DNA of 16,164 nucleotides, from the UHGV virus genome UHGV-0142489; one strand, given 5' to 3'. Of this stretch, positions 1 to 15,368 are shown one piece after another (the first letter of the stretch is position 1; each line of letters begins with the position of its first letter). The stretch is from a virus. A program made the translations under genes and the position numbers. The notes under the pieces were generated by a model. The model had not been told where the DNA came from. It made no database searches and saw nothing but the letters and a program-made list of their open reading frames with translations.

Positions 1-140
1 TGATTGAAATCAAAATAACGATGGGTTTATTATTACCAAAATGGTAAATTTACAACCCATTCCCATTGTGCCATAGTAATCGGGCACTGGCAAAATCCAG
101 TGCCGGGATTGGCGTCCTGGGTTACTACAGAGGCACATAT

Positions 141-160
141 GCCGCATAAGCGGTTTTTTT
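141..160 (+). terminator. Weak candidate intrinsic terminator at the extreme 5' end of the window
   Basis: 4-bp GC stem ccgc(142-145)/gcgg(150-153) with ataa loop, followed by seven consecutive T (154-160). The stem is short, so this is weak; it would end a transcript arriving from upstream of the window. Confidence 0.3.
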
Positions 161-313
161 ATGTGTAAAGCGCACCTATTCTATGGTGGGCTGTGTGGGG
201 GCACCGAAAGGTGCGCCGGGTCCTTTGTAGCCGGTTACGCCAACCCTGCACAGTTCACCACCAACCGATTGGCGTCGGTAGTGGTGATTAACCTAACTAC
301 AAAGGTGATCACT

Positions 314-1111: not shown

Positions 1112-1321
1112 ATGGGATTTTGGTTCGCTCGTACAAAAACGAGGGATAATGCACCCAGCCCTCAGGCAAAAAATGCAGAAGTTCCGGCGTCAGCGCAGGT
1201 TAACAAGCGTGGTGGTGTGTATATCTCATCACAGCAAATTTCTGAGCTTCCTGAGGTTAAGGAGATGCGTCGTCTCGCTGCTGCAATCGTTAAACAGGAT
1301 CTTGCCACTGTAAGGAAATAG
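1112..1321 (+). CDS. Small hypothetical protein, 69 aa, soluble
   Basis: ATG at 1112 preceded by an exceptionally strong Shine-Dalgarno GAGGAGGAG (1101-1109). Balanced, hydrophilic composition. TAG stop (1319-1321) overlaps the GTG start of the next gene by 1 nt. A hand-counted 100-nt sample (1141-1240) has 50 G+C, like the phage backbone. Confidence 0.65.
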   Translation: MGFWFARTKTRDNAPSPQAKNAEVPASAQVNKRGGVYISSQQISELPEVKEMRRLAAAIVKQDLATVRK

Positions 1322-2184
1322 TGTTGTTAGCTCTTCTAATTATCCCCATTCTGGTTAGTGGTTATATTATGATAACCGCTAACCAGTATCATTATTTCCG
1401 TTTATACCGACATGAAGGCCAGCTTCTTTATATGAAAGTAGCTGCATTAGGTACATATTGCCTTGTTGCTTCGGTAATAATTGCCGCATTTATAAAATAT
1501 AAATATCCTGATTTTCACCTAGTTCACGATATGGTGGAAACTTTTAATGTAACGTCAAAACCAGAAACAGATAGAATTTACATGTGGCTACTTCTTCTGT
1601 CAGTCACATCAATTTGCTTCTCTTTGTGTTATGTATCTTTTGTTTGGCTAAAAGATCTTCTTTTAGGTTGTTTTTATAAACGTGATATTTATGACAAAAT
1701 ATCAGAGGCAATGAAAGCTAGGGTATTGCGAAAAACGTACTCCCAGGGTTCTTTAGATTTGCTATTGCTTGATGCAATCGAATCAGATCCTAAGAAACCA
1801 ATGTTAATTACTTTATCATCAAATAAAGTATACGTTGGAATAATAAATGGTTCTGGTGAGCCAACGGAAAATCAAGGGCCACACCAACACATATCTTTTG
1901 TTCCTTTAATGTCAGGGTACAGAAACAAAGAAAATTTATCTGTTACATTTACAAACGCTTACCCAGGTGAAATCCAAATTAAGCGCAGTGCTGCGATAAA
2001 AGGGATAAGCAAAAAGAAAGTTCAAGGTCTAGAAATTATGGTATCTATAGACGAAATAAGTCATATATCATGGTTTGACTTTGAAGTATATAAGGCAACA
2101 AATAACAAAGTAGAAACAAAGGGGCATGTTGTTAATGTGACCAAAAATGGTCGCAACATATACTACAGAAGTGGCAGGAAATAA
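1321..2184 (+). CDS. Hypothetical membrane protein, 287 aa: three N-terminal TM helices plus ~175-aa cytoplasmic domain of unknown function
   Basis: GTG start at 1321 with AAGGA (1312-1316) upstream. Hydrophobic segments LLALLIIPILVSGYIMI, VAALGTYCLVASVIIAAFI and MWLLLLSVTSICFSLCYVSFVWL, followed by a basic stretch (KDLLLGCFYKRDIYDK), which by the positive-inside rule places the C-terminal domain in the cytoplasm. AT-rich (38 G+C in 1321-1420, hand count). An alternative start at ATG 1366 would delete the first helix. Confidence 0.7.
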   Translation: MLLALLIIPILVSGYIMITANQYHYFRLYRHEGQLLYMKVAALGTYCLVASVIIAAFIKYKYPDFHLVHDMVETFNVTSKPETDRIYMWLLLLSVTSICFSLCYVSFVWLKDLLLGCFYKRDIYDKISEAMKARVLRKTYSQGSLDLLLLDAIESDPKKPMLITLSSNKVYVGIINGSGEPTENQGPHQHISFVPLMSGYRNKENLSVTFTNAYPGEIQIKRSAAIKGISKKKVQGLEIMVSIDEISHISWFDFEVYKATNNKVETKGHVVNVTKNGRNIYYRSGRK

Positions 2185-2209
2185 ATTTTACGCAGTTTAG
2201 GTGGCTTAT

Positions 2210-2713
2210 ATGGATAATACTATCTTAGGCGCATTGATAGGTGCAGTTATTGCTATAGTTTCCACTTATATAAATGCAAGACAAGGATACAAAAACAGCA
2301 TAAGATTAGAGCGACAAAAAATATTAAGGGATAAACGCGAGCAATTATTTATAAATTGTATACTTGCTGAAAAAGTCATAAATTCAAGCGCAATTACCAT
2401 TCTCAATTTTGTAAAAAATGCCAGATACCACTCTGATAGTAAATTTGACGTATCAAGAGCGAATCCGTTGCAAACGATGGAAATGCTAATAAACATATAC
2501 CTTCCTGAGTATAAAAAAGAATTACAAGAACTCAATAATGCGTATCAAGAATTTCACAAATACTACTCTCAATATACATGTGCACATACCTTCAAAAATA
2601 TGCCTGATAATGAGAAGTCGAAGTTTATTGAGGAGGCTGATTTTTATGCAAAAAAGATATATGGCAAACTTAATGATATTAAGGACAAGATATCATTTAA
2701 CTCAATAGTATAA
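2210..2713 (+). CDS. Hypothetical membrane-anchored protein, 167 aa: single N-terminal TM helix plus helical K/E/N/Y-rich cytoplasmic domain
   Basis: ORF-track frame 2201..2713 begins at a GTG that is part of the AGGTGG Shine-Dalgarno (2199-2204); the in-frame ATG at 2210 sits 5 nt downstream and is the likelier start. TM segment ILGALIGAVIAIVSTYI followed by basic NARQGYKNSIRLERQKILRDKREQ. Very AT-rich (34 G+C in 2221-2320, hand count). Confidence 0.7.
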   Translation: MDNTILGALIGAVIAIVSTYINARQGYKNSIRLERQKILRDKREQLFINCILAEKVINSSAITILNFVKNARYHSDSKFDVSRANPLQTMEMLINIYLPEYKKELQELNNAYQEFHKYYSQYTCAHTFKNMPDNEKSKFIEEADFYAKKIYGKLNDIKDKISFNSIV

Positions 2714-2788
2714 CAGCGATACTGCCGCTGACGGCTCCCGCTGCGGTGGGCGTTCTGCGGATTCCCGCCCGGGCGGCGGTGGCATTCG

Positions 2789-2815
2789 TTAAAAACAAGG
2801 CCGCGAAAGCGGCCT
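2789..2815 (-). terminator. Intrinsic terminator closing the minus-strand virion operon
   Basis: Perfect 7-bp GC-rich stem AGGCCGC/GCGGCCT with GAAA tetraloop (plus-strand 2798-2815). On the minus strand the hairpin is followed directly by TGTTTTTAAC. It lies 9 nt downstream of the TGA stop of the 98-aa gene (2824-2826). Confidence 0.65.
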
Positions 2816-2823
2816 GTGACATG

Positions 2824-3120
2824 TCACGTTCCTTTTCTGAATGATAGCCGTTCGAAAAATGATGACATTCCACCGCAGACAATAGCAAAGATGATCCCAC
2901 CAAAGAAGAGAAGGCCAGCCTGCCACCACTCCCACCGCCATACATCCACAGCACCAACCATACCAACAATCGCTCCAACAAATGGAATATAGCTCACGAT
3001 GAAAGCAATGGGGGCTGCAATTATCCAGTGCAATCCCCACCATGATTCAAGCCCAGCCATAATTGCTGCCAACTGAAAAAGGCCAACGACGATATAAACA
3101 ATGAATCCTATCGCTTGCAT
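2824..3120 (-). CDS. Small integral membrane protein, 98 aa, three TM helices (holin-like topology or exclusion/immunity protein)
   Basis: ATG at 3120 with AGGTGA Shine-Dalgarno. Three hydrophobic helices separated by Trp-rich loops (ESWWGLHW, DVWRWEWWQ) and a short basic C-terminal tail (ERLSFRKGT). Last gene before the operon terminator. The two overlapping alternative-frame ORFs in the track were not chosen. Confidence 0.7.
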   Translation of the reverse strand: MQAIGFIVYIVVGLFQLAAIMAGLESWWGLHWIIAAPIAFIVSYIPFVGAIVGMVGAVDVWRWEWWQAGLLFFGGIIFAIVCGGMSSFFERLSFRKGT

Positions 3121-3132
3121 GTAGTCACCTAT

Positions 3133-3306
3133 TTACCCAGTAAAAATCAGAGGCCTCCCCTCAATAAGGCTTGCAACAAGAACTATTCCCTGCACAACAA
3201 AGATGAACCAGCAAATAGCTTGAGTCTGAGGGTTAAGAAAATATTTGTAGCGGTCAATAAATAACAACCCACCAGAAATTATCACACTCAAAATAATTAA
3301 AAACAC
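3133..3306 (-). CDS. Possible small two-TM membrane protein, 57 aa (not in the supplied ORF track)
   Basis: My own translation of the minus strand: GTG at 3306-3304 preceded by AAGGAAG, reading (M)FLIILSVIISGGLLFIDRYKYFLNPQTQAICWFIFVVQGIVLVASLIEGRPLIFTG and ending at TAA 3135-3133. No ATG is present in the frame, and AT-rich DNA gives hydrophobic codons by chance, so confidence is low. Confidence 0.3.
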   Translation of the reverse strand: MFLIILSVIISGGLLFIDRYKYFLNPQTQAICWFIFVVQGIVLVASLIEGRPLIFTG

Positions 3307-3315
3307 AACACTTCC

Positions 3316-5790
3316 TTATTGCGGAGTGACATCCTGAGGTCGCCACCAGTATGTCTGATTAAACTCTTTCTTCGAACGTTGCTCCATTTTACGCAAATAG
3401 CCTGGTGAAAAATACTCCTGCATCTGGTTAAAGATCATATGATCGAGAGCCGCCTTTAAGTACCAGAGATTCGCACCTGGCATCAAACCTTTCCCCAGCT
3501 TCACCAGATCACCACCAGTCTGCTCACTCTTCCCTTCCACAGCATTTAACGGTATGCCCTGAGCAATCTTCACTACGTCATCAACCAGACCAGCTACCGG
3601 GCCAAGCATCGACGCCAGCGCGCCGCTTCCGTACCTAGTGTGATCTGACAATAAAAAGTCACCGTAAAGGCCAAGGCCACCACCTTTCAGTAGAGCACCA
3701 AGCCAGAATTTTGCGGCACCTTCTCCTGTCATCTCTCGAGGATTACGACCAGACGCAAGGTCGTTAAGTTGCTGCGACAAAGCGCCAAGAATGGTCGTAC
3801 TGGCAATAAACGTCGCAATATATGCCGCACGCCCACCAGCAGACGGCATACCCATAGCGCGTGACCAGTGACGCATAACAACCGAGATAGGGAACGATTT
3901 AAACAGGAAAACACTTCTCGTTAATTCACCTTTCCATGTTCCACGCTGAATACCAGAACCGGTTATCAGTTGCTCACGTGCTCCCGGTGTAATAATAGCC
4001 ATATCAACTTCTTCAGTTACGGCACCGAGCAGTTTACGCATTGCCTCAAATTTCACTCGTTCAGGCTCACCAAGATGTTTAACTGCTGAATCAGGGATAC
4101 GCATAATGCTTTCCGGTGTCAGCATCGTATTATTACCGTTCCCCCAGTCCTCCTGTTGCGCCAGCTTCCATACGTTCCAGTCTGTGTCAGTAATCCCTTT
4201 GCTTTTCAGGATACGAAAATCAGAGTCATCGAGGCTACGAAGGTCTGGTGTCCGTGACACTACTTCTCCCAGGCTTCCCATCATGGTTACGCCATAGGCG
4301 CGCTTGTGCGCATCTGACCATGCTGTAAGCCCACTGGCACGCATTACGGCCGTTGCCGCCCAACGAGACACTGACGGCCCCATATTATCCATCGCCCAGC
4401 GGTTAACGCTGCCAAGTAGAGATTCCATCGCCAGACCAGCGCGGCGCGCCCGCGCAAGTTCTGTACGGTTCGTTGGGTCCATAGCTTCAAGCTGGTTGCG
4501 GAATAACTGGTTCATTGGAAGGTTGGTAACCTTCGCAGACAGATACATGGTTCCAAGATCAGAGAACGATGACAGCAACGCGGATCCGAGTCTGCTGGCA
4601 ACCAGCCAGTTGCGGATATTGTCAGACCATCGCGCGATGTGCGGATTCGCTACAGGCTGTGTCTTTCCAGAAATAAAGTTGTACAGATTCTCTGTGTTGT
4701 TCGCCAGCCGCTCGACTTTACCGGTTTTACTCGGGTTAGCTGTTGCCGTTTCTGCCTTAACCTGATCAAGAAGAGAGCGGAAAACATGATCGGGGTTTGG
4801 GCCATATGTTTCCACCAGCGCAATATCTTTACTGATACCTTCCAGGTGACCGACCATGATTTCCCATAGAGAGCGATCGCCATAAAGTTGCTGATATTGC
4901 AGATAGGAATCTGCATCTTTGAAATGTATCTGTCGTGATGCATTACCACGGTTAGCACGCACGCCGGAAATTCGCATTCCGGTATCAGTAAGCTTATTCA
5001 GCCCACCAGTAGCGATCGTGTTATAAGCCTCTCCAAGAAATGCAGACAACTCGGCATCGTTCATCAGTTGCCCATCGGCTCGGGTATAATATTTGCGATC
5101 CAGCTTACCTATAACATCGCTAACCCATTTATCTTTTGATACCGCCCCAACCTTTTCCATAGAATGATGTTGAGGGATCCCCCAGTTTTCGAGATAGCCA
5201 ATGTCCCCACCAGCATCATTAAACCGGCGGCGCAGTAGATCTGTCACTTCTCTCCACGCCTTAGCACCTTTTCTTGCTTTAGCATTGCCAGTATTTTGCC
5301 CTCGCATTTCATATACCAGGTCACGCACGCCCGCTTCATCTTCAAACAGACTAAAAAAGCGAGGATCAACTGCTTCGAATGCCTCCTGCAATCGACTCAA
5401 TGCATAATCACGGGTGGCTTTTGTTCTGGATTCAACAGAGAGGAAATTCGATTTACCGTCTGCATTAAAAGCAATAGTACGGTTAAGAGCGCCAAGTTTC
5501 CCATCAGCCCCTTGATAGCTATTGATAAATTTATCCAATCTCTGACGTGCGGCTATAGTGAGGGCCACACGACGTTTCTTTAATGCCGCTTCTCGCTGTA
5601 ATTCTTCAGATGCCAATTGTGCTGCTCGATATAGCCGCTCTGATTCGGAAAGTTGTCGCCACGAGATCGGGTCATCACGAGCAATGGAGCGCATATTTCG
5701 ATAAATGCGGTCTTCAATGTTCTGTATTTCTCGCGCCGTTAAAGTGCGCTGCGCCGCCTGCTGGACCGCTTGTATACATTCCTGTCTCAT
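3316..5790 (-). CDS. Large internal virion / ejection protein, 824 aa
   Basis: ATG at 5790, 5 nt after the stop of the upstream gene. Long, largely helical-looking protein with hydrophobic stretches near the C-terminus (AAYIATFIASTTILGAL, GAAKFWLGALLKGGGLGLYGDFLL). Its position after the tail tubular genes matches the internal core/ejection proteins of T7-type podoviruses. No tail-fibre-like repeats. Confidence 0.75.
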   Translation of the reverse strand: MRQECIQAVQQAAQRTLTAREIQNIEDRIYRNMRSIARDDPISWRQLSESERLYRAAQLASEELQREAALKKRRVALTIAARQRLDKFINSYQGADGKLGALNRTIAFNADGKSNFLSVESRTKATRDYALSRLQEAFEAVDPRFFSLFEDEAGVRDLVYEMRGQNTGNAKARKGAKAWREVTDLLRRRFNDAGGDIGYLENWGIPQHHSMEKVGAVSKDKWVSDVIGKLDRKYYTRADGQLMNDAELSAFLGEAYNTIATGGLNKLTDTGMRISGVRANRGNASRQIHFKDADSYLQYQQLYGDRSLWEIMVGHLEGISKDIALVETYGPNPDHVFRSLLDQVKAETATANPSKTGKVERLANNTENLYNFISGKTQPVANPHIARWSDNIRNWLVASRLGSALLSSFSDLGTMYLSAKVTNLPMNQLFRNQLEAMDPTNRTELARARRAGLAMESLLGSVNRWAMDNMGPSVSRWAATAVMRASGLTAWSDAHKRAYGVTMMGSLGEVVSRTPDLRSLDDSDFRILKSKGITDTDWNVWKLAQQEDWGNGNNTMLTPESIMRIPDSAVKHLGEPERVKFEAMRKLLGAVTEEVDMAIITPGAREQLITGSGIQRGTWKGELTRSVFLFKSFPISVVMRHWSRAMGMPSAGGRAAYIATFIASTTILGALSQQLNDLASGRNPREMTGEGAAKFWLGALLKGGGLGLYGDFLLSDHTRYGSGALASMLGPVAGLVDDVVKIAQGIPLNAVEGKSEQTGGDLVKLGKGLMPGANLWYLKAALDHMIFNQMQEYFSPGYLRKMEQRSKKEFNQTYWWRPQDVTPQ

Positions 5791-5795
5791 TTAAT

Positions 5796-7598
5796 TTAAC
5801 CTCTCAAGAAACACGCCACAGCGACATCAAACAGGCTGGAATCCTGTATTGCCTGCTCACTTTCCCTGTTCGCTTCATCCAGTACTTCACGCGCACTGCG
5901 CGATTGTGGATTACCATCATCATCCAGCACGGTGATTATCATGTCAGGTGATTCAAGCAGCGAGTCTTCAGCTATGCGCAGATCAATATCTCCTGCCTTA
6001 TCTGACATCATTTTTTGTTCTGCCTGTTGCAATATTTTATCAGGCTCAAAAGGAGCTACTTCGTCTGGCGTCCTGACCTCTGCTGTTTTATAGAATGAAA
6101 CAGCCTGAGCATTAAGTTCACTTTCTGCCTGCTGTCTCCGAGCCAGTTCTGCTCGAGCTTCAAAAAGCTGACCGCCAGGCTCGTGCGGTGCCAACGCGTT
6201 ACGGGAAAATTCCAGGCGTTCTTGTGCCTGCCGGATTCGTTGATCAATATCGCGAAGTCTGGCCTGTTTATCTGATCGAGCACGAGACAAAGCTTTACCG
6301 CTACCGGTTGGCTCTTCTGCAAGAATTTGTGCACGCTGTTCAGTGAGATTTTCAATAATTCGTTGGCTATTAGCGATTTCAGACTGGTAAACCTGTCTAT
6401 CTCCACGCGGCAAAAGCTGCGCGGCCTGTTCTTCAAGCAACCGATTTTCTATAGCACGCGCCGTTACTCCATCATCTACAGATGACAGAGCCTCATTAAC
6501 TGCCTGAGACAGCAGACTCTTGCGCCCAGGAATTTCACTGAAAGATGCAGACTCAACAATGCTGGCAACGTCTACAGGTCTCCCCTGGCTAACATCAGAC
6601 ATAGCTTTTCGCAGAGCCTGAATGTGAGAATTGCGCGAAAGCACGTTGATCGGCACGCCGGGCGCAATATCAATTTCAGCATGATGAGCGGCATTCGCCG
6701 CCAGTGCAGCATCGATATCAACTGGTGAAAAATTTGGTGCGTTTGTAGACTCGCCGCGAGAGTTAATAAATCTGCCGACACCACCAAACGCCACCCCAAG
6801 AACAGCATCAATAGCAATTGCCTGTCGATCCAACACATCATACTGGTTAGCCATTTCGCTATAGCCACCATCACGAAGTGTTTTTGCAGTAAGCCCACGC
6901 TGTGCCATACCGAACGCAATATTTGTACCTGCGGCATAGGCAATATCTGGCGTTGCACGTACTGCTGTTGCTGCGGCGCGTCGCACTGAACTCTCACCCG
7001 TCCGCGCAAGCTGAGCCGCCACACCTTCCGCCAGCGCACCACCAGCACGTAACCCGAGGCTCATAGGGATCAGTGTTCCGGCACCAGCAGTAATGCCCTG
7101 CACTAATCCCGCTTCCTGCGCCGTCCTGAAATCAACACCCTGTGCTGTCAGCCGTTCAAACTCAGAAAAACCCTGTAGCGAAGTTACCGCCGCCGCACCT
7201 CCGACAGGACCACCGAGCGTTGTACCGACAACAGCCTGCCCGCCCATATCGAACAACCCATAAAGAACCTGCCCGGCGGTTCCGGTTGTCGCGGCATCAG
7301 GCGTCAGCCGCTTAACCTGCTGCTCTGCTAGTTTTCTCTGCTCGGCAATGTATGAAACTGAAGTATCATTGAGCGAGGTGTTTTCGTTAATAAACTGAGC
7401 AATCGGGGATACGATTTTATCCATCCCTGCCCATAGCAACTGATCTGGCTTTGCCACCAGCCCGGAGTACAAACCAGACAATGCCGCTCCTACAGCATTG
7501 TCGAAAAAACCAACATCGCTGTTAAAGCCCGCTGGATTTGATGCTGCTTCGTCAAGTTGCTGATTCTGGTTTACTGGATTAAGGCCAAAGTAACTCAT
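5796..7598 (-). CDS. Internal virion protein, 600 aa, with Gly/Ala-rich N-terminal third
   Basis: ATG at 7598 overlaps the TGA of the upstream gene (ATGA, 4-nt overlap). Gly/Ala-rich low-complexity segments (GTTLGGPVGGAAAVTSL, GITAGAGTLIPMSLGLRAGGALAEGVAAQLARTG) followed by a charged, coiled-coil-like C-terminal half. Confidence 0.75.
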   Translation of the reverse strand: MSYFGLNPVNQNQQLDEAASNPAGFNSDVGFFDNAVGAALSGLYSGLVAKPDQLLWAGMDKIVSPIAQFINENTSLNDTSVSYIAEQRKLAEQQVKRLTPDAATTGTAGQVLYGLFDMGGQAVVGTTLGGPVGGAAAVTSLQGFSEFERLTAQGVDFRTAQEAGLVQGITAGAGTLIPMSLGLRAGGALAEGVAAQLARTGESSVRRAAATAVRATPDIAYAAGTNIAFGMAQRGLTAKTLRDGGYSEMANQYDVLDRQAIAIDAVLGVAFGGVGRFINSRGESTNAPNFSPVDIDAALAANAAHHAEIDIAPGVPINVLSRNSHIQALRKAMSDVSQGRPVDVASIVESASFSEIPGRKSLLSQAVNEALSSVDDGVTARAIENRLLEEQAAQLLPRGDRQVYQSEIANSQRIIENLTEQRAQILAEEPTGSGKALSRARSDKQARLRDIDQRIRQAQERLEFSRNALAPHEPGGQLFEARAELARRQQAESELNAQAVSFYKTAEVRTPDEVAPFEPDKILQQAEQKMMSDKAGDIDLRIAEDSLLESPDMIITVLDDDGNPQSRSAREVLDEANRESEQAIQDSSLFDVAVACFLRG

Positions 7599-14924: not shown

Positions 14925-15368
14925 TTAGCCGGTCACTTTAGAGCGGGTCGGGTACAGGGTATTCGCATCAACGTCCAGGTTGATACCGGAGGTGAACGCG
15001 CCAGCAGTCAGCGGGCCGGTGGCTACGGAGTAGTTCACACGCAGATAGCGCTGAACGCCCGCCGGTACCTTCGCCGACACAACGCGCTTACCAGCTTTAA
15101 GCGCTGCCAGAGCCAGGGGGCCGCTGTCATAAATGGTCGTCCAGGTGCTGTTGTCAGGACTGGTCTGCAACTGCACGTTGACGGTAGCGGCGCCAGCAGC
15201 GGTAGCCGTGGTGTTAACGAGAGCCCAGAACTCCAGCGGATAACCAACGCCGATATCACGGCGGGTGCCGTCGACAGGCGCCAGGTCAATCACATCGGTA
15301 GAAGCAGCAGTAGCCGTAACCGCCTGCGCTTCGGAGAACATCAACAGTTTGTCGAGGATCATCTTCAT
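14925..15368 (-). CDS. Small beta-rich virion protein, 147 aa (possible capsid decoration / cement protein)
   Basis: Directly downstream of the capsid gene. Thr/Ala/Val/Gly-rich composition typical of beta-sandwich head accessory proteins. GGAG lies only 2 nt from the ATG at 15368, so the ATG at 15362 may be the real start. Confidence 0.65.
   Translation of the reverse strand: MKMILDKLLMFSEAQAVTATAASTDVIDLAPVDGTRRDIGVGYPLEFWALVNTTATAAGAATVNVQLQTSPDNSTWTTIYDSGPLALAALKAGKRVVSAKVPAGVQRYLRVNYSVATGPLTAGAFTSGINLDVDANTLYPTRSKVTG

What the first reader, a model, noticed from the sequence alone, without database searches (positions are those of the whole stretch)
2714..2839. GC-rich convergent intergenic zone with a strong terminator and a perfect 12-bp palindrome overlapping a stop codon
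The 110-bp spacer between the two converging gene sets is the most GC-rich non-coding stretch in the window. It contains the palindrome CCGCCCGGGCGG (2765-2776), the terminator hairpin (2798-2815) and the perfect palindrome GTGACATGTCAC (2816-2827), which overlaps the TGA of the 98-aa gene. The A-tract/hairpin geometry terminates the minus strand well, but the plus-strand cassette has no adjacent T-tract, so it may read through into antisense of the 98-aa gene.
Basis: seen in the sequence. Interest (0 to 1): 0.3.

Follow-up and report, generated by a model that had tools for sequence, protein, structure and literature searches.

The report
Gene remnant, terminator, and regulator site
The GC-rich "spacer" in this epsilon15-like E. 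coli prophage is mostly the dead tail of a small gene plus an ordinary, already annotated terminator, but its 12-bp palindrome GTGACATGTCAC is one copy of an undescribed motif that recurs wherever phages carry a small uncharacterised regulator gene.

Summary
The zone breaks into three separable parts.

1. **Gene remnant, 2718-2792 (+).** This is not a spacer. It is the last 24 codons plus TAA of a 53-aa signal-peptide protein gene that is intact in related phages. An AT-rich cargo cassette replaced its 5' part. CCGCCCGGGCGG is simply the codons Ser-Arg-Pro-Gly-Gly.

2. **Terminator, 2798-2815.** With its minus-strand U-tract, this is the intrinsic terminator of the late structural operon. The phiV10 and epsilon15 records already annotate it.

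3. **Palindrome, 2816-2827.** It is conserved regardless of which gene lies next to it.
   - Epsilon15 has exactly three copies, each beside a terminator.
   - One copy overlaps the stop codon of gp49 (PHROG 536, "transcriptional regulator").
   - Distant phages with a 39-70% identical homologue (ZF40, phiKO2, a Yersinia P2-like phage, Vibrio K308) each carry one to three copies of GTGAC-NN-GTCAC. In three of them a copy lies at or just after that gene's stop; in K308 the nearest is 226 nt downstream.
   - The half-sites stay fixed while the centre varies by lineage.

The best reading is a binding site for that regulator. Binding and function are untested. The half-sites equal those of matS, but the spacer is one base shorter.

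The parts
1112..2713 (+). AT-rich cargo cassette of three ORFs (69, 287 and 170 aa; 1112-1321, 1321-2184, 2201-2713). Its insertion or replacement truncated the small gene to its right.
   Evidence: GC is 33% for 1321-2713 against 50% for the window. There are no Pfam, NCBIfam or PADLOC hits. The cassette is present in only a few E. coli prophages, and BLAST homology with most relatives starts at 2713.
2718..2792 (+). Pseudogene: the 3' remnant (24 codons plus TAA, DTAADGSRCGGRSADSRPGGGGIR*) of a 53-aa signal-peptide protein gene. It contains CCGCCCGGGCGG (2765-2776), which is the codons S-R-P-G-G.
   Evidence: PGAP annotates the identical stretch in strain E275a as a pseudogene 'missing N-terminus'. 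Intact genes in TL-2011b, AMSHJX01 and Klebsiella phage BUCT711 translate to MKKAFAALFVLLSLVASTQAFAGRCQHDSDTAADGSRCGGRSADSRPGGGGIR. The alignment shows mostly third-position differences between the E. coli and Klebsiella versions.
2790..2797 (-). U-tract of the minus-strand terminator (UUGUUUUUA on the RNA). On the + strand it is the A-tract that begins with the TAA of the remnant.
2798..2815 (-). Intrinsic terminator hairpin (7-bp stem, 6 G-C pairs, 4-nt loop) that ends the late structural operon.
   Evidence: Terminator scan. The fold gives -16.5 kcal/mol for 2790-2832 on the minus strand, and 0 of 200 shuffles fold as well. The phiV10 and epsilon15 records annotate it as a terminator. Across relatives the stem is kept while the loop varies (GAAA, TTCG, AAGA, TATT and others).
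2816..2827 (.). GTGACATGTCAC: one copy of the dispersed GTGAC-N2-GTCAC motif, the probable binding site of the epsilon15 gp49 / PHROG 536 regulator, whose gene lies outside the window. It contains the TGA of the 98-aa ORF.
   Evidence: In the window there is 1 copy against 0.01 expected. Among 78 unbiased E. coli relatives it is exact in 71 and has one mismatch in 7. Epsilon15 has three copies, ZF40 three and phiKO2 three. It lies at the regulator's stop codon in 72 of 79 unbiased loci, allowing one mismatch.
2824..3120 (-). 98-aa hydrophobic small protein, the last gene of the late operon in this variant. Its stop codon is positions 2-4 of the palindrome.
   Evidence: ORF list. It is annotated as a hypothetical protein in RefSeq relatives. 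Relatives carry alternative end cassettes of about 160, 491 and 599 nt.

Best explanation
The zone is a mosaic joint in a Uetakevirus (epsilon15/phiV10-like) prophage. It consists of three independent pieces.

**1. Gene remnant (2713/2718-2792).** This is the dead 3' end of a 53-aa secreted-protein gene. Its 5' part was replaced by an AT-rich cargo cassette. The coding origin explains the GC-richness and CCGCCCGGGCGG. This step is shown.

**2. Terminator (2798-2815 plus the minus-strand U-tract).** This is the intrinsic terminator that ends the late structural operon. It terminates poorly, if at all, on the plus strand. This is shown at the sequence level and inferred functionally.

**3. Palindrome (2816-2827).** This is one of the two to three dispersed copies per genome of GTGAC-N2-GTCAC.
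- I infer that it is the DNA site bound, probably as a symmetric dimer, by the phage's small Cys-rich regulator (epsilon15 gp49 family, PHROG 536).
- That regulator's own stop codon overlaps another copy of the site.
- In Uetakeviruses the copies sit next to terminators at the borders of the terminase block and the structural block.
- My best guess for its action here is that the bound protein marks or insulates the junction between the late operon and the converging immunity/cargo transcription unit. That unit has no U-tract of its own.
- Neither binding nor its effect is shown.

The terminator hairpin travels with the left module. The palindrome travels with the right module.
For: **Remnant**
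- In 80 unbiased relatives the gene is intact in 29, reduced to an 85-, 33- or 18-nt 3' stub in 19, and absent in 32. This fits repeated replacement from the left.

**Terminator**

**Palindrome independent of its neighbours**
- It is invariant in 8 of 8 aligned loci. These include a Klebsiella phage with a 10-bp insert between hairpin and palindrome, and TL-2011b and phiV10, which have different adjacent genes.
- It is exact in 71 of 78 loci found through the gp17-like protein, and none lack it.
- It is present in Salmonella, Enterobacter, Citrobacter and Kluyvera relatives.

**Multiple copies per genome**
- Epsilon15 has copies at 2142, 19517 and 39612. None of 100 shuffles reaches 3.
- PhiV10 has copies at 2262 and 19493, plus a one-mismatch copy spanning the ends of the record.

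**Link to the regulator gene**
- The copy at the PHROG 536 stop codon is exact in 58, has one mismatch in 14 and two in 2 of 79 loci found through the protein. Only G+TGA of the 12 bases is coding.
- The variants change the two central bases (AG, GG, CT, GT) and leave the half-sites intact.
- Four distant lineages carrying 39-70% identical homologues each have the motif:
  - ZF40 has three copies, at 14944 just after the stop, 5125 and 7622.
  - Yersinia YenM_31.17 has GTGACGCGTCAC on the stop codon.
  - Vibrio K308 has GTGACACGTCAC twice within 8.4 kb.
  - PhiKO2 has GTGACTGGTCAC three times, one of them on the stop codon.
  - Chance expectation is 0.03-0.10 per genome.
- Of 115 loci picked only for the 14-mer, 31 encode a homologue within the fetched 15 kb or less. 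In 13 of these the gene is not adjacent to the palindrome.

**Separable modules**
- The Combat2C1 prophage keeps the hairpin without the palindrome.
Against: - No evidence shows that PHROG 536 proteins bind DNA.
  - Pfam finds nothing above threshold.
  - No PDB sequence matches.
  - An AF2 model with pLDDT 81 finds no fold match.
- Sites 2 and 3 are each dispensable. TL-2011b lacks the copy after the large terminase subunit gene (terL), and Combat2C1 lacks the copy at this junction.
- The sites do not lie next to recognisable promoters. In ZF40 two copies lie inside coding regions.
- Many of the sampled contigs are close relatives, so the counts are not independent events.
A 14-mer is expected by chance hundreds of times in a collection of that size.
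- The proposed insulating role is speculation. A bound protein would also sit in the path of late transcription.
Confidence: 0.55

Rival explanations
1. The palindrome, together with the hairpin, is a recombination 'linker' or boundary sequence. On this reading it is a short block of identity at module borders, and its only role is to let homologous or relaxed (RecT/Erf-type) recombination swap cassettes. It stays identical because it is constantly exchanged, and no protein reads it.
For: BLAST similarity breakpoints pile up at the edges of the unit: on the left at 2713, 2754, 2770, 2790 and 2797, and on the right at 2817, 2828, 2831 and 2837. Unrelated cassettes occur on both sides of an invariant unit of about 31 bp. 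The copies delimit the terminase block and the structural block. These phages encode RecT/RecE-like recombinases.
Against: Twelve base pairs is very short for homology-driven exchange. The same half-sites are kept with lineage-specific centres in Vibrio, Yersinia, N15-like and ZF40 phages that share no flanking DNA. Copies inside coding regions and on the regulator's stop codon are not module borders. The fixed half-sites and free centre are the signature of a read site.
Confidence: 0.15
2. The element works in RNA. On this reading GUGACAUGUCAC, placed just 5' of the terminator hairpin in three transcripts, is a 3'-UTR module. It could be a processing or stability signal, a binding site for an RNA-binding antiterminator, or the seed of a 3'-UTR-derived small RNA.
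For: On the strand that has the U-tract the order is always gene, palindrome, hairpin, U-tract. This holds at epsilon15 39612, 2142 (minus strand) and 19517, at both exact phiV10 copies, and at phiKO2 30784. A terminator with a U-tail preceded by a conserved single-stranded stretch is the usual architecture of Hfq-dependent small RNAs; this last point comes from my own knowledge.
Against: The 12-mer folds at only -1.2 kcal/mol, no better than shuffles. No compensatory changes are seen: the stem positions are fixed in sequence and only the centre varies. Spacing to the hairpin ranges from 1 to 22 nt and more. Some copies lie in coding regions with no terminator nearby. Rfam finds nothing here even at E<=10.
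Confidence: 0.12
3. The palindrome is read by a host protein. The obvious candidate is MatP, whose site matS is GTGAC-RNY-GTCAC. The phage copies would then act as weak or decoy matS sites.
For: The half-sites are identical to matS, and the 12-mer equals the matS consensus with the central N removed. The consensus is quoted in PMC3603311. That paper found no canonical matS in any of 500 prophages and concluded that matS is counter-selected there.
Against: The spacer is 2 bp, not 3, in every copy seen, and no 13-bp version was found in phiV10, epsilon15, TL-2011b, ZF40, phiKO2 or the other genomes scanned. The motif tracks a phage gene rather than a host clade.
Confidence: 0.08
4. One reading: a non-coding GC-rich spacer carries two incidental palindromes and a terminator, and the 12-mer is kept only because it overlaps the stop codon.
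For: Perfect 12-bp palindromes are not rare by chance: the window has 7 against 4.1 expected. The TGA does lie inside the palindrome.
Against: The spacer is a gene remnant. The 12-mer is conserved where no stop codon overlaps it, as in phiV10, TL-2011b and the copies after the large terminase subunit gene, terL. It also recurs far above chance.
Confidence: 0.03

Closest known systems
Rho-independent terminator at the end of the late operon of epsilon15/phiV10 (annotated in NC_007804 and NC_004775)
   Same: It has the same position, after the last small gene that follows the gp17-like virion protein. It has the same GGCCGC/GCGGCC stem and a U-tract on the late-operon strand.
   Different: Nothing essential differs. 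The loop and the distal tail vary between phages. On the plus strand there is no U-tract in this variant, whereas 'TTT' and Klebsiella variants have one.
matS, the MatP binding site of the E. coli Ter macrodomain (GTGACRNYGTCAC; Mercier 2008 as quoted in PMC3603311)
   Same: It has identical GTGAC/GTCAC half-sites in inverted orientation and occurs as a few dispersed copies per replicon.
   Different: The spacer is 2 bp instead of 3 in all copies. The motif tracks a phage gene. The candidate binding protein shows no detectable similarity to MatP (hhalign probability 0.13%).
Phage operator/regulator pairs in which a small dimeric regulator binds a short palindrome near its own gene (for example P22 Arc/Mnt, or the controller proteins of restriction-modification systems); this comparison is from my own knowledge
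   Same: It is a short perfect palindrome with fixed half-sites and a free centre. One copy abuts the regulator's own gene and a few more lie elsewhere in the genome.
   Different: The copies lie at the 3' end of genes and next to terminators, not at promoters. The protein fold is unassigned, with a Cys cluster and no significant match to a ribbon-helix-helix or helix-turn-helix family.
Dispersed centromere palindromes of N15/phiKO2 (GTGCGACCACGGTCGCAC, annotated in phiKO2 as 'putative plasmid partitioning site')
   Same: They are also several identical palindromes scattered through a phage genome, in the same genome (phiKO2) that carries three GTGACTGGTCAC sites.
   Different: The sequence and length are different, they have a known partner (SopB/ParB), and they are not linked to the PHROG 536 gene.
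Boundary or linker sequences at module junctions of mosaic temperate phages, and 'moron' cargo slots bounded by a terminator; this comparison is from my own knowledge
   Same: Variable cassettes lie on both sides of a constant short unit, and there are nested truncations of the gene next to the terminator.
   Different: The constant unit contains a motif that is also conserved in unrelated phage types, away from any junction.

Membership tests
Intrinsic (Rho-independent) terminator | G+C-rich stem-loop immediately followed by a U-tract on the transcribed strand | tested here: met
   On the minus strand there is a 7-bp stem with 6 G-C pairs, a 4-nt loop and the tail UGUUUUUAAC. The fold energy is -16.5 kcal/mol, with z = -3.3. 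The plus strand has no U-tract within 8 nt and is not called.
Intrinsic (Rho-independent) terminator | Lies just downstream of the last gene of an operon, and the structure is conserved while the loop sequence drifts | tested here: met
   It lies 8 nt after the stop of the last late gene. Across relatives the loops are GAAA, TTCG, TTTT, AAGA, TATT and CATT, with the stem kept.
Intrinsic (Rho-independent) terminator | Transcript 3' ends map to the U-tract | not testable with these tools
   No RNA data are available.
Pseudogene remnant of the 53-aa signal-peptide protein gene | Collinear nucleotide identity with the 3' part of intact homologues, in the same frame and with the same stop codon, but without the start codon and N-terminus | tested here: met
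   The remnant is 98-99% identical to relatives from 2713 onward. Residues DTAADGSRCGGRSADSRPGGGGIR* equal residues 30-53 of the intact protein. PGAP calls it a pseudogene in E275a.
Pseudogene remnant of the 53-aa signal-peptide protein gene | The intact gene is a real coding gene (a pattern of purifying selection) | tested here: met
   The E. coli and Klebsiella copies differ mostly at third codon positions over this stretch, and the protein is kept.
matS (MatP binding site) | 13-bp GTGAC-RNY-GTCAC | tested here: not met
   The half-sites match but the spacer is 2 bp. No 13-bp form occurs in the seven phage sequences scanned for it (phiV10, epsilon15, TL-2011b, ZF40, the Yersinia phage, the 8.4-kb piece of Vibrio K308 and phiKO2). 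The consensus is taken from PMC3603311.
matS (MatP binding site) | Bound by MatP and located in the Ter macrodomain | not testable with these tools
   There are no binding data, and the chromosomal position of this window is unknown.
Operator of a phage-encoded dimeric regulator (here PHROG 536 / epsilon15 gp49) | Dyad-symmetric site with conserved half-sites and a tolerant centre | tested here: met
   The variants AT, AG, GG, CT, GT, GC, AC and TG/CA all keep GTGAC and GTCAC.
Operator of a phage-encoded dimeric regulator (here PHROG 536 / epsilon15 gp49) | Several copies per genome, far above chance | tested here: met
   Epsilon15 has 3. ZF40 has 3 against 0.10 expected. PhiKO2 has 3 against 0.03 expected.
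Operator of a phage-encoded dimeric regulator (here PHROG 536 / epsilon15 gp49) | Co-occurs with the regulator gene across divergent lineages | tested here: met
   Five lineages with 39-100% identical proteins all carry the motif. Of 79 unbiased loci, 72 carry it at the stop codon, allowing one mismatch. No proper control set of genomes lacking the gene could be scanned.
Operator of a phage-encoded dimeric regulator (here PHROG 536 / epsilon15 gp49) | The protein has a recognisable DNA-binding fold | tested here: inconclusive
   PHROG 536 is labelled 'transcriptional regulator'. The only Pfam match is a sub-threshold RepB-RCR_reg hit at E = 0.034. No PDB sequence matches and no PDB fold matches.
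Operator of a phage-encoded dimeric regulator (here PHROG 536 / epsilon15 gp49) | Direct binding and a regulatory effect | not testable with these tools
   This needs EMSA, ChIP and mutant phages.
Epsilon15 prophage-repressor operator | Matches the repressor sites annotated in NC_004775 (for example 12-27, ATTACC-N4-GGTAAT-like) | tested here: not met
   The sequence is different, and none of the seven annotated repressor sites coincides with the three palindrome copies.

The most novel reading that the evidence does not exclude
GTGAC-N2-GTCAC together with the PHROG 536 protein forms a phage-borne counterpart of the host MatP/matS system. In this reading a small phage protein reads matS-type half-sites at two or three dispersed positions. 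Its role would be to bridge or compact the phage genome, for example by looping out the terminase and structural blocks, or to interfere with the host's MatP/Ter-macrodomain organisation and cell division. It would not be a classical promoter regulator.
Probability: 0.1. Interest if true: 0.8.

Novelty: new member of a known kind. Interest (0 to 1): 0.42.

Why it matters
The terminator and the gene remnant are ordinary. They do illustrate how cargo slots in epsilon15-like prophages are remodelled while the terminator is kept. About 10% of complete E. coli genomes (568 of 5426) carry this junction.

The useful result is a testable protein-site pair. PHROG 536 is a widespread but uncharacterised 'transcriptional regulator' family, found in Uetakeviruses, N15-like and P2-like phages, ZF40 and Vibrio phages. 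It now has a candidate recognition sequence and a small, defined set of genomic targets.

In epsilon15-like phages those targets sit beside the terminators that punctuate the path from early genes to late genes. Control of late genes in this genus is not understood.

The identity of the half-sites with matS, in prophages reported to avoid canonical matS, is an additional and cheaply testable curiosity.

Tried and rejected
- **tRNA or attachment-site remnant.** ARAGORN finds none.
- **Known RNA family.** Rfam, even at E<=10, has nothing in 2700-2850. Its only hits are C4, isrK and the c4 targets at 71-265.
- **CCGCCCGGGCGG as a functional palindrome.** It is coding sequence (Ser-Arg-Pro-Gly-Gly). 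It is present only where the small gene or a long remnant is kept, and it is broken to CCGCCCCGGCGG in a Klebsiella phage.
- **Palindrome as a stable RNA hairpin.** It folds at -1.2 kcal/mol, no better than shuffles.
- **Palindrome conserved as stop codon or as start codon.** The central ATG does start a xis-like ORF in some phages. Lineages with AG, GG, CT, GC, AC or TG centres have no ATG. Several copies overlap no stop codon.
- **Sigma-70 promoter from GTGACA.** It scores 9 of 12, which is background (21 found against 17.7 expected), and the -10 part lies in variable flank.
- **LexA or CRP site.** The half-site spacing is wrong; this rests on my own knowledge and was not tested further.
- **Prophage-repressor operator.** The annotated epsilon15 sites are a different sequence.
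- **gp49 as the phage's Q-type antiterminator.** ZF40 and phiKO2 carry a separate Q-like gene.
- **gp49 homologous to MatP.** hhalign gives a probability of 0.13%.
- **Fold assignment of gp49.**
  - The first AF2 run was poor (pLDDT 60).
  - The second was usable (pLDDT 81).
  - Foldseek found nothing in the PDB and only a fragment of the same family in BFVD.
- **Literature.** No paper in the searchable library contains GTGACATGTCAC, and none was found on epsilon15 gp49.
- **Cargo ORFs.** Pfam, NCBIfam and PADLOC found nothing for them.
Full report
**What the window is**

The window is part of an epsilon15/phiV10-like (Uetakevirus) prophage of E. coli.
- Megablast of 1000-3400 hits phiv142-3, phiV10, TL-2011b and others. 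It also hits 561 of 5426 complete E. coli genomes.
- On the minus strand lie the late structural genes: a 600-aa ORF, an 824-aa gp17-like ORF, and 57-aa and 98-aa ORFs.
- On the plus strand lies a P1-type immunity module: c4 targets, isrK, C4 RNA and a Bro-N antirepressor. It is followed by AT-rich ORFs of 69, 287 and 170 aa.
- The two sets converge on 2714-2823.

**Check of the observation**

Every coordinate is right.
- The TAA is at 2711-2713.
- CCGCCCGGGCGG is at 2765-2776.
- The hairpin is at 2798-2815.
- GTGACATGTCAC is at 2816-2827 and includes the minus-strand TGA at 2826-2824.

GC is 66% in the zone against 33% in the neighbouring cargo. The terminator scan calls the hairpin only on the minus strand.

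Perfect 12-bp palindromes are not unusual in themselves. The window has 7 against 4.1 +/- 2.3 in shuffles.

**Piece 1: the 'spacer' is a gene remnant**

- Short-query BLAST shows that similarity to most relatives starts exactly at 2713.
- In TL-2011b, E. coli AMSHJX01 and Klebsiella phage BUCT711 this DNA is the 3' end of a 53-aa gene. Its product is MKKAFAALFVLLSLVASTQAFA-GRCQHDSDTAADGSRCGGRSADSRPGGGGIR.
- Window 2718-2792 translates to the last 24 residues plus the stop.
- PGAP marks the identical stretch in strain E275a as a pseudogene lacking its N-terminus.
- The E. coli and Klebsiella versions differ mostly at third codon positions, so the intact gene is under coding constraint.
- CCGCCCGGGCGG is Ser-Arg-Pro-Gly-Gly. 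A synonymous change breaks it in the Klebsiella phage.

Among 80 contigs found through the gp17-like protein, and therefore unbiased for this DNA:
- the gene is intact in 29;
- it is cut to 85 nt in 1, to 33 nt in 14 and to 18 nt in 4;
- it is absent in 32.

The window keeps 77-80 nt. Cargo has therefore been swapped in from the left repeatedly, and the terminator-proximal end has always been spared.

**Piece 2: the terminator**

- The hairpin has a 7-bp stem with 6 G-C pairs.
- It is followed by UUGUUUUUA on the minus strand, 8 nt after the stop of the last late gene.
- The same element is annotated as a terminator in phiV10 and epsilon15.
- Across relatives the stem is kept and the loop drifts.
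- On the plus strand only 3 of the next 8 bases are T.

It cannot be tested further here.

**Piece 3: the palindrome**

It is conserved whatever lies beside it.
- It is invariant in 8 of 8 aligned loci. These include a Klebsiella phage with a 10-bp insert between hairpin and palindrome. They also include TL-2011b (an Ant gene next door) and phiV10 (a 46-aa gene that ends 8 nt away).
- In the unbiased E. coli sample it is exact in 71 of 78, has one mismatch in 7, and is never missing.
- It is present in Salmonella SPN1S and epsilon15, Enterobacter Tyrion, and Citrobacter and Kluyvera prophages.
- It is absent from Pectobacterium and Pantoea prophages whose gp17-like protein is 76-79% identical. 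Those have other terminators.

The hairpin and the palindrome are separable. The Combat2C1 prophage has the small gene and the hairpin followed by unrelated DNA.

**More copies, always by terminators**

PhiV10 has a second exact copy at 2262, beside a different hairpin after the large terminase subunit gene (terL).

Epsilon15 has exactly three copies:
- 39612, where positions 2-4 are the TGA of gp49 and a terminator follows 22 nt later, just before the small terminase subunit gene (terS);
- 2142, 2 nt from the terminator after terL;
- 19517, where positions 2-4 are the TGA of gp18 and the terminator follows after 1 nt.

On the strand with the U-tract the order is always gene, palindrome, hairpin, U-tract.

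Sites 2 and 3 are each dispensable. TL-2011b lacks the terL copy and Combat2C1 lacks the junction copy.

**Link to a regulator gene**

The gene whose stop overlaps the palindrome is epsilon15 gp49 / phiV10 p55, a member of PHROG 536 labelled 'transcriptional regulator'.

In 79 loci retrieved through the protein alone:
- the palindrome at the stop is exact in 58, has one mismatch in 14 and two in 2;
- only G+TGA of the 12 bases is coding;
- the variants change the two central bases and leave GTGAC and GTCAC intact.

The decisive test was distant family members.

| Phage | Identity to gp49 | Motif | Positions |
|---|---|---|---|
| ZF40 | 70% | GTGACATGTCAC, three copies | One lies 3 nt after the stop |
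| Yersinia P2-like phage | 47% | GTGACGCGTCAC | On the stop codon |
| Vibrio K308 | 39% | GTGACACGTCAC, two copies in 8.4 kb | One lies just before terS |
| phiKO2 | 42% | GTGACTGGTCAC, three copies | One lies on the stop codon |

Chance expectation is 0.03-0.10 per genome. Fixed half-sites, a lineage-specific centre, several copies and co-inheritance with one gene are what a cognate protein-DNA pair looks like.

**What is not shown**

The protein's fold is unassigned.
- Pfam gives only a sub-threshold RepB-RCR_reg hit.
- No PDB sequence matches.
- An AF2 model from a diverse alignment has pLDDT 81. It shows four helices and a Cys-rich loop with near-invariant C79, C82, C91 and C99. It has no structural neighbour.

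The sites do not lie at recognisable promoters. ZF40 and phiKO2 have a separate Q-like gene, so this is not simply 'the antiterminator'.

The idea that the bound protein insulates the late operon from the converging transcription unit, which lacks a terminator of its own, is my guess only.

**Comparison with known things**

- The half-sites equal those of matS (GTGAC-RNY-GTCAC; PMC3603311). The spacer is 2 bp rather than 3 in every copy.
- The protein shows no similarity to MatP. It is therefore not a matS site, though it may work in a similar way.
- It is not an epsilon15 repressor operator.
- No paper in the searchable library contains the sequence.

**Verdict**

The zone is mostly ordinary: a pseudogene tail plus a known terminator. 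It also contains one copy of an undescribed motif that very probably belongs to an uncharacterised phage regulator family. That part is new, modest in scope, and directly testable.

Noticed in passing
window 71-265 (+), upstream of the Bro-N antirepressor ORF (314-1000): Rfam finds the c4-a1b1 targets (71-123; at 41.7 bits this is just below the 46.7 gathering score), isrK (84-160) and C4 antisense RNA (179-265). Together these make a P1/P7-type immI antisense-RNA module that controls an antirepressor in a Uetakevirus prophage.
   Followed up: no
window 1112-2713 (+): Three AT-rich cargo ORFs (69, 287 and 170 aa; 33% GC for 1321-2713 against 50% for the window) have no hit in Pfam, NCBIfam or PADLOC. 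They occupy a slot where relatives carry YafO toxins, DUF4760 or DUF2335 proteins. They may be an unknown defence or exclusion cassette.
   Followed up: partly
window 1351-1386 (+): There is a 15-pair inverted repeat (CTGGTTAGTGGTTAT-ATTATG-ATAACCGCTAACCAG) inside the first 22 codons of the 287-aa cargo ORF. It is the longest stem in the terminator scan.
   Followed up: no
L334-L411 (loci found through the gp49-like protein), 5-60 nt after the palindrome: In one clade the palindrome is directly followed by TTGACn-17-TAtACTGTttaaatgTACAGTA, a sigma-70-like promoter overlapped by a near-consensus LexA box. There the regulator's site abuts an SOS-controlled promoter.
   Followed up: no
L135 (phiV10) record ends, 39101-39104 joined to 1-8: PhiV10's third copy, at the stop of p55, is split by the linear record's start point and carries one mismatch (GTGACATGTTAC). 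A plain scan of the record therefore misses it.
   Followed up: yes
window 2824-3306 (-), and L251-L330: The end of the late operon is itself a variable slot. At least three alternative small-membrane-protein cassettes lie between the gp17-like gene and the palindrome, of about 160, 491 and 599 nt.
   Followed up: partly
L244 about 4380-4470, L216 about 7170-7270: In P2-like contigs with 40% identical regulators, the exact palindrome is extended to the 16-bp CTGTGACATGTCACAG in L244. It is flanked by further GTGAC/GTCAC-like half-sites, which looks like a small operator cluster.
   Followed up: partly
L136 1526-1537: In some integrase-proximal contexts the palindrome serves as both stop and start. 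The TGA of the regulator gene and the ATG of a 90-aa xis-like ORF lie 1 nt apart inside it (GTG-TGA-C-ATG-TCA).
   Followed up: partly
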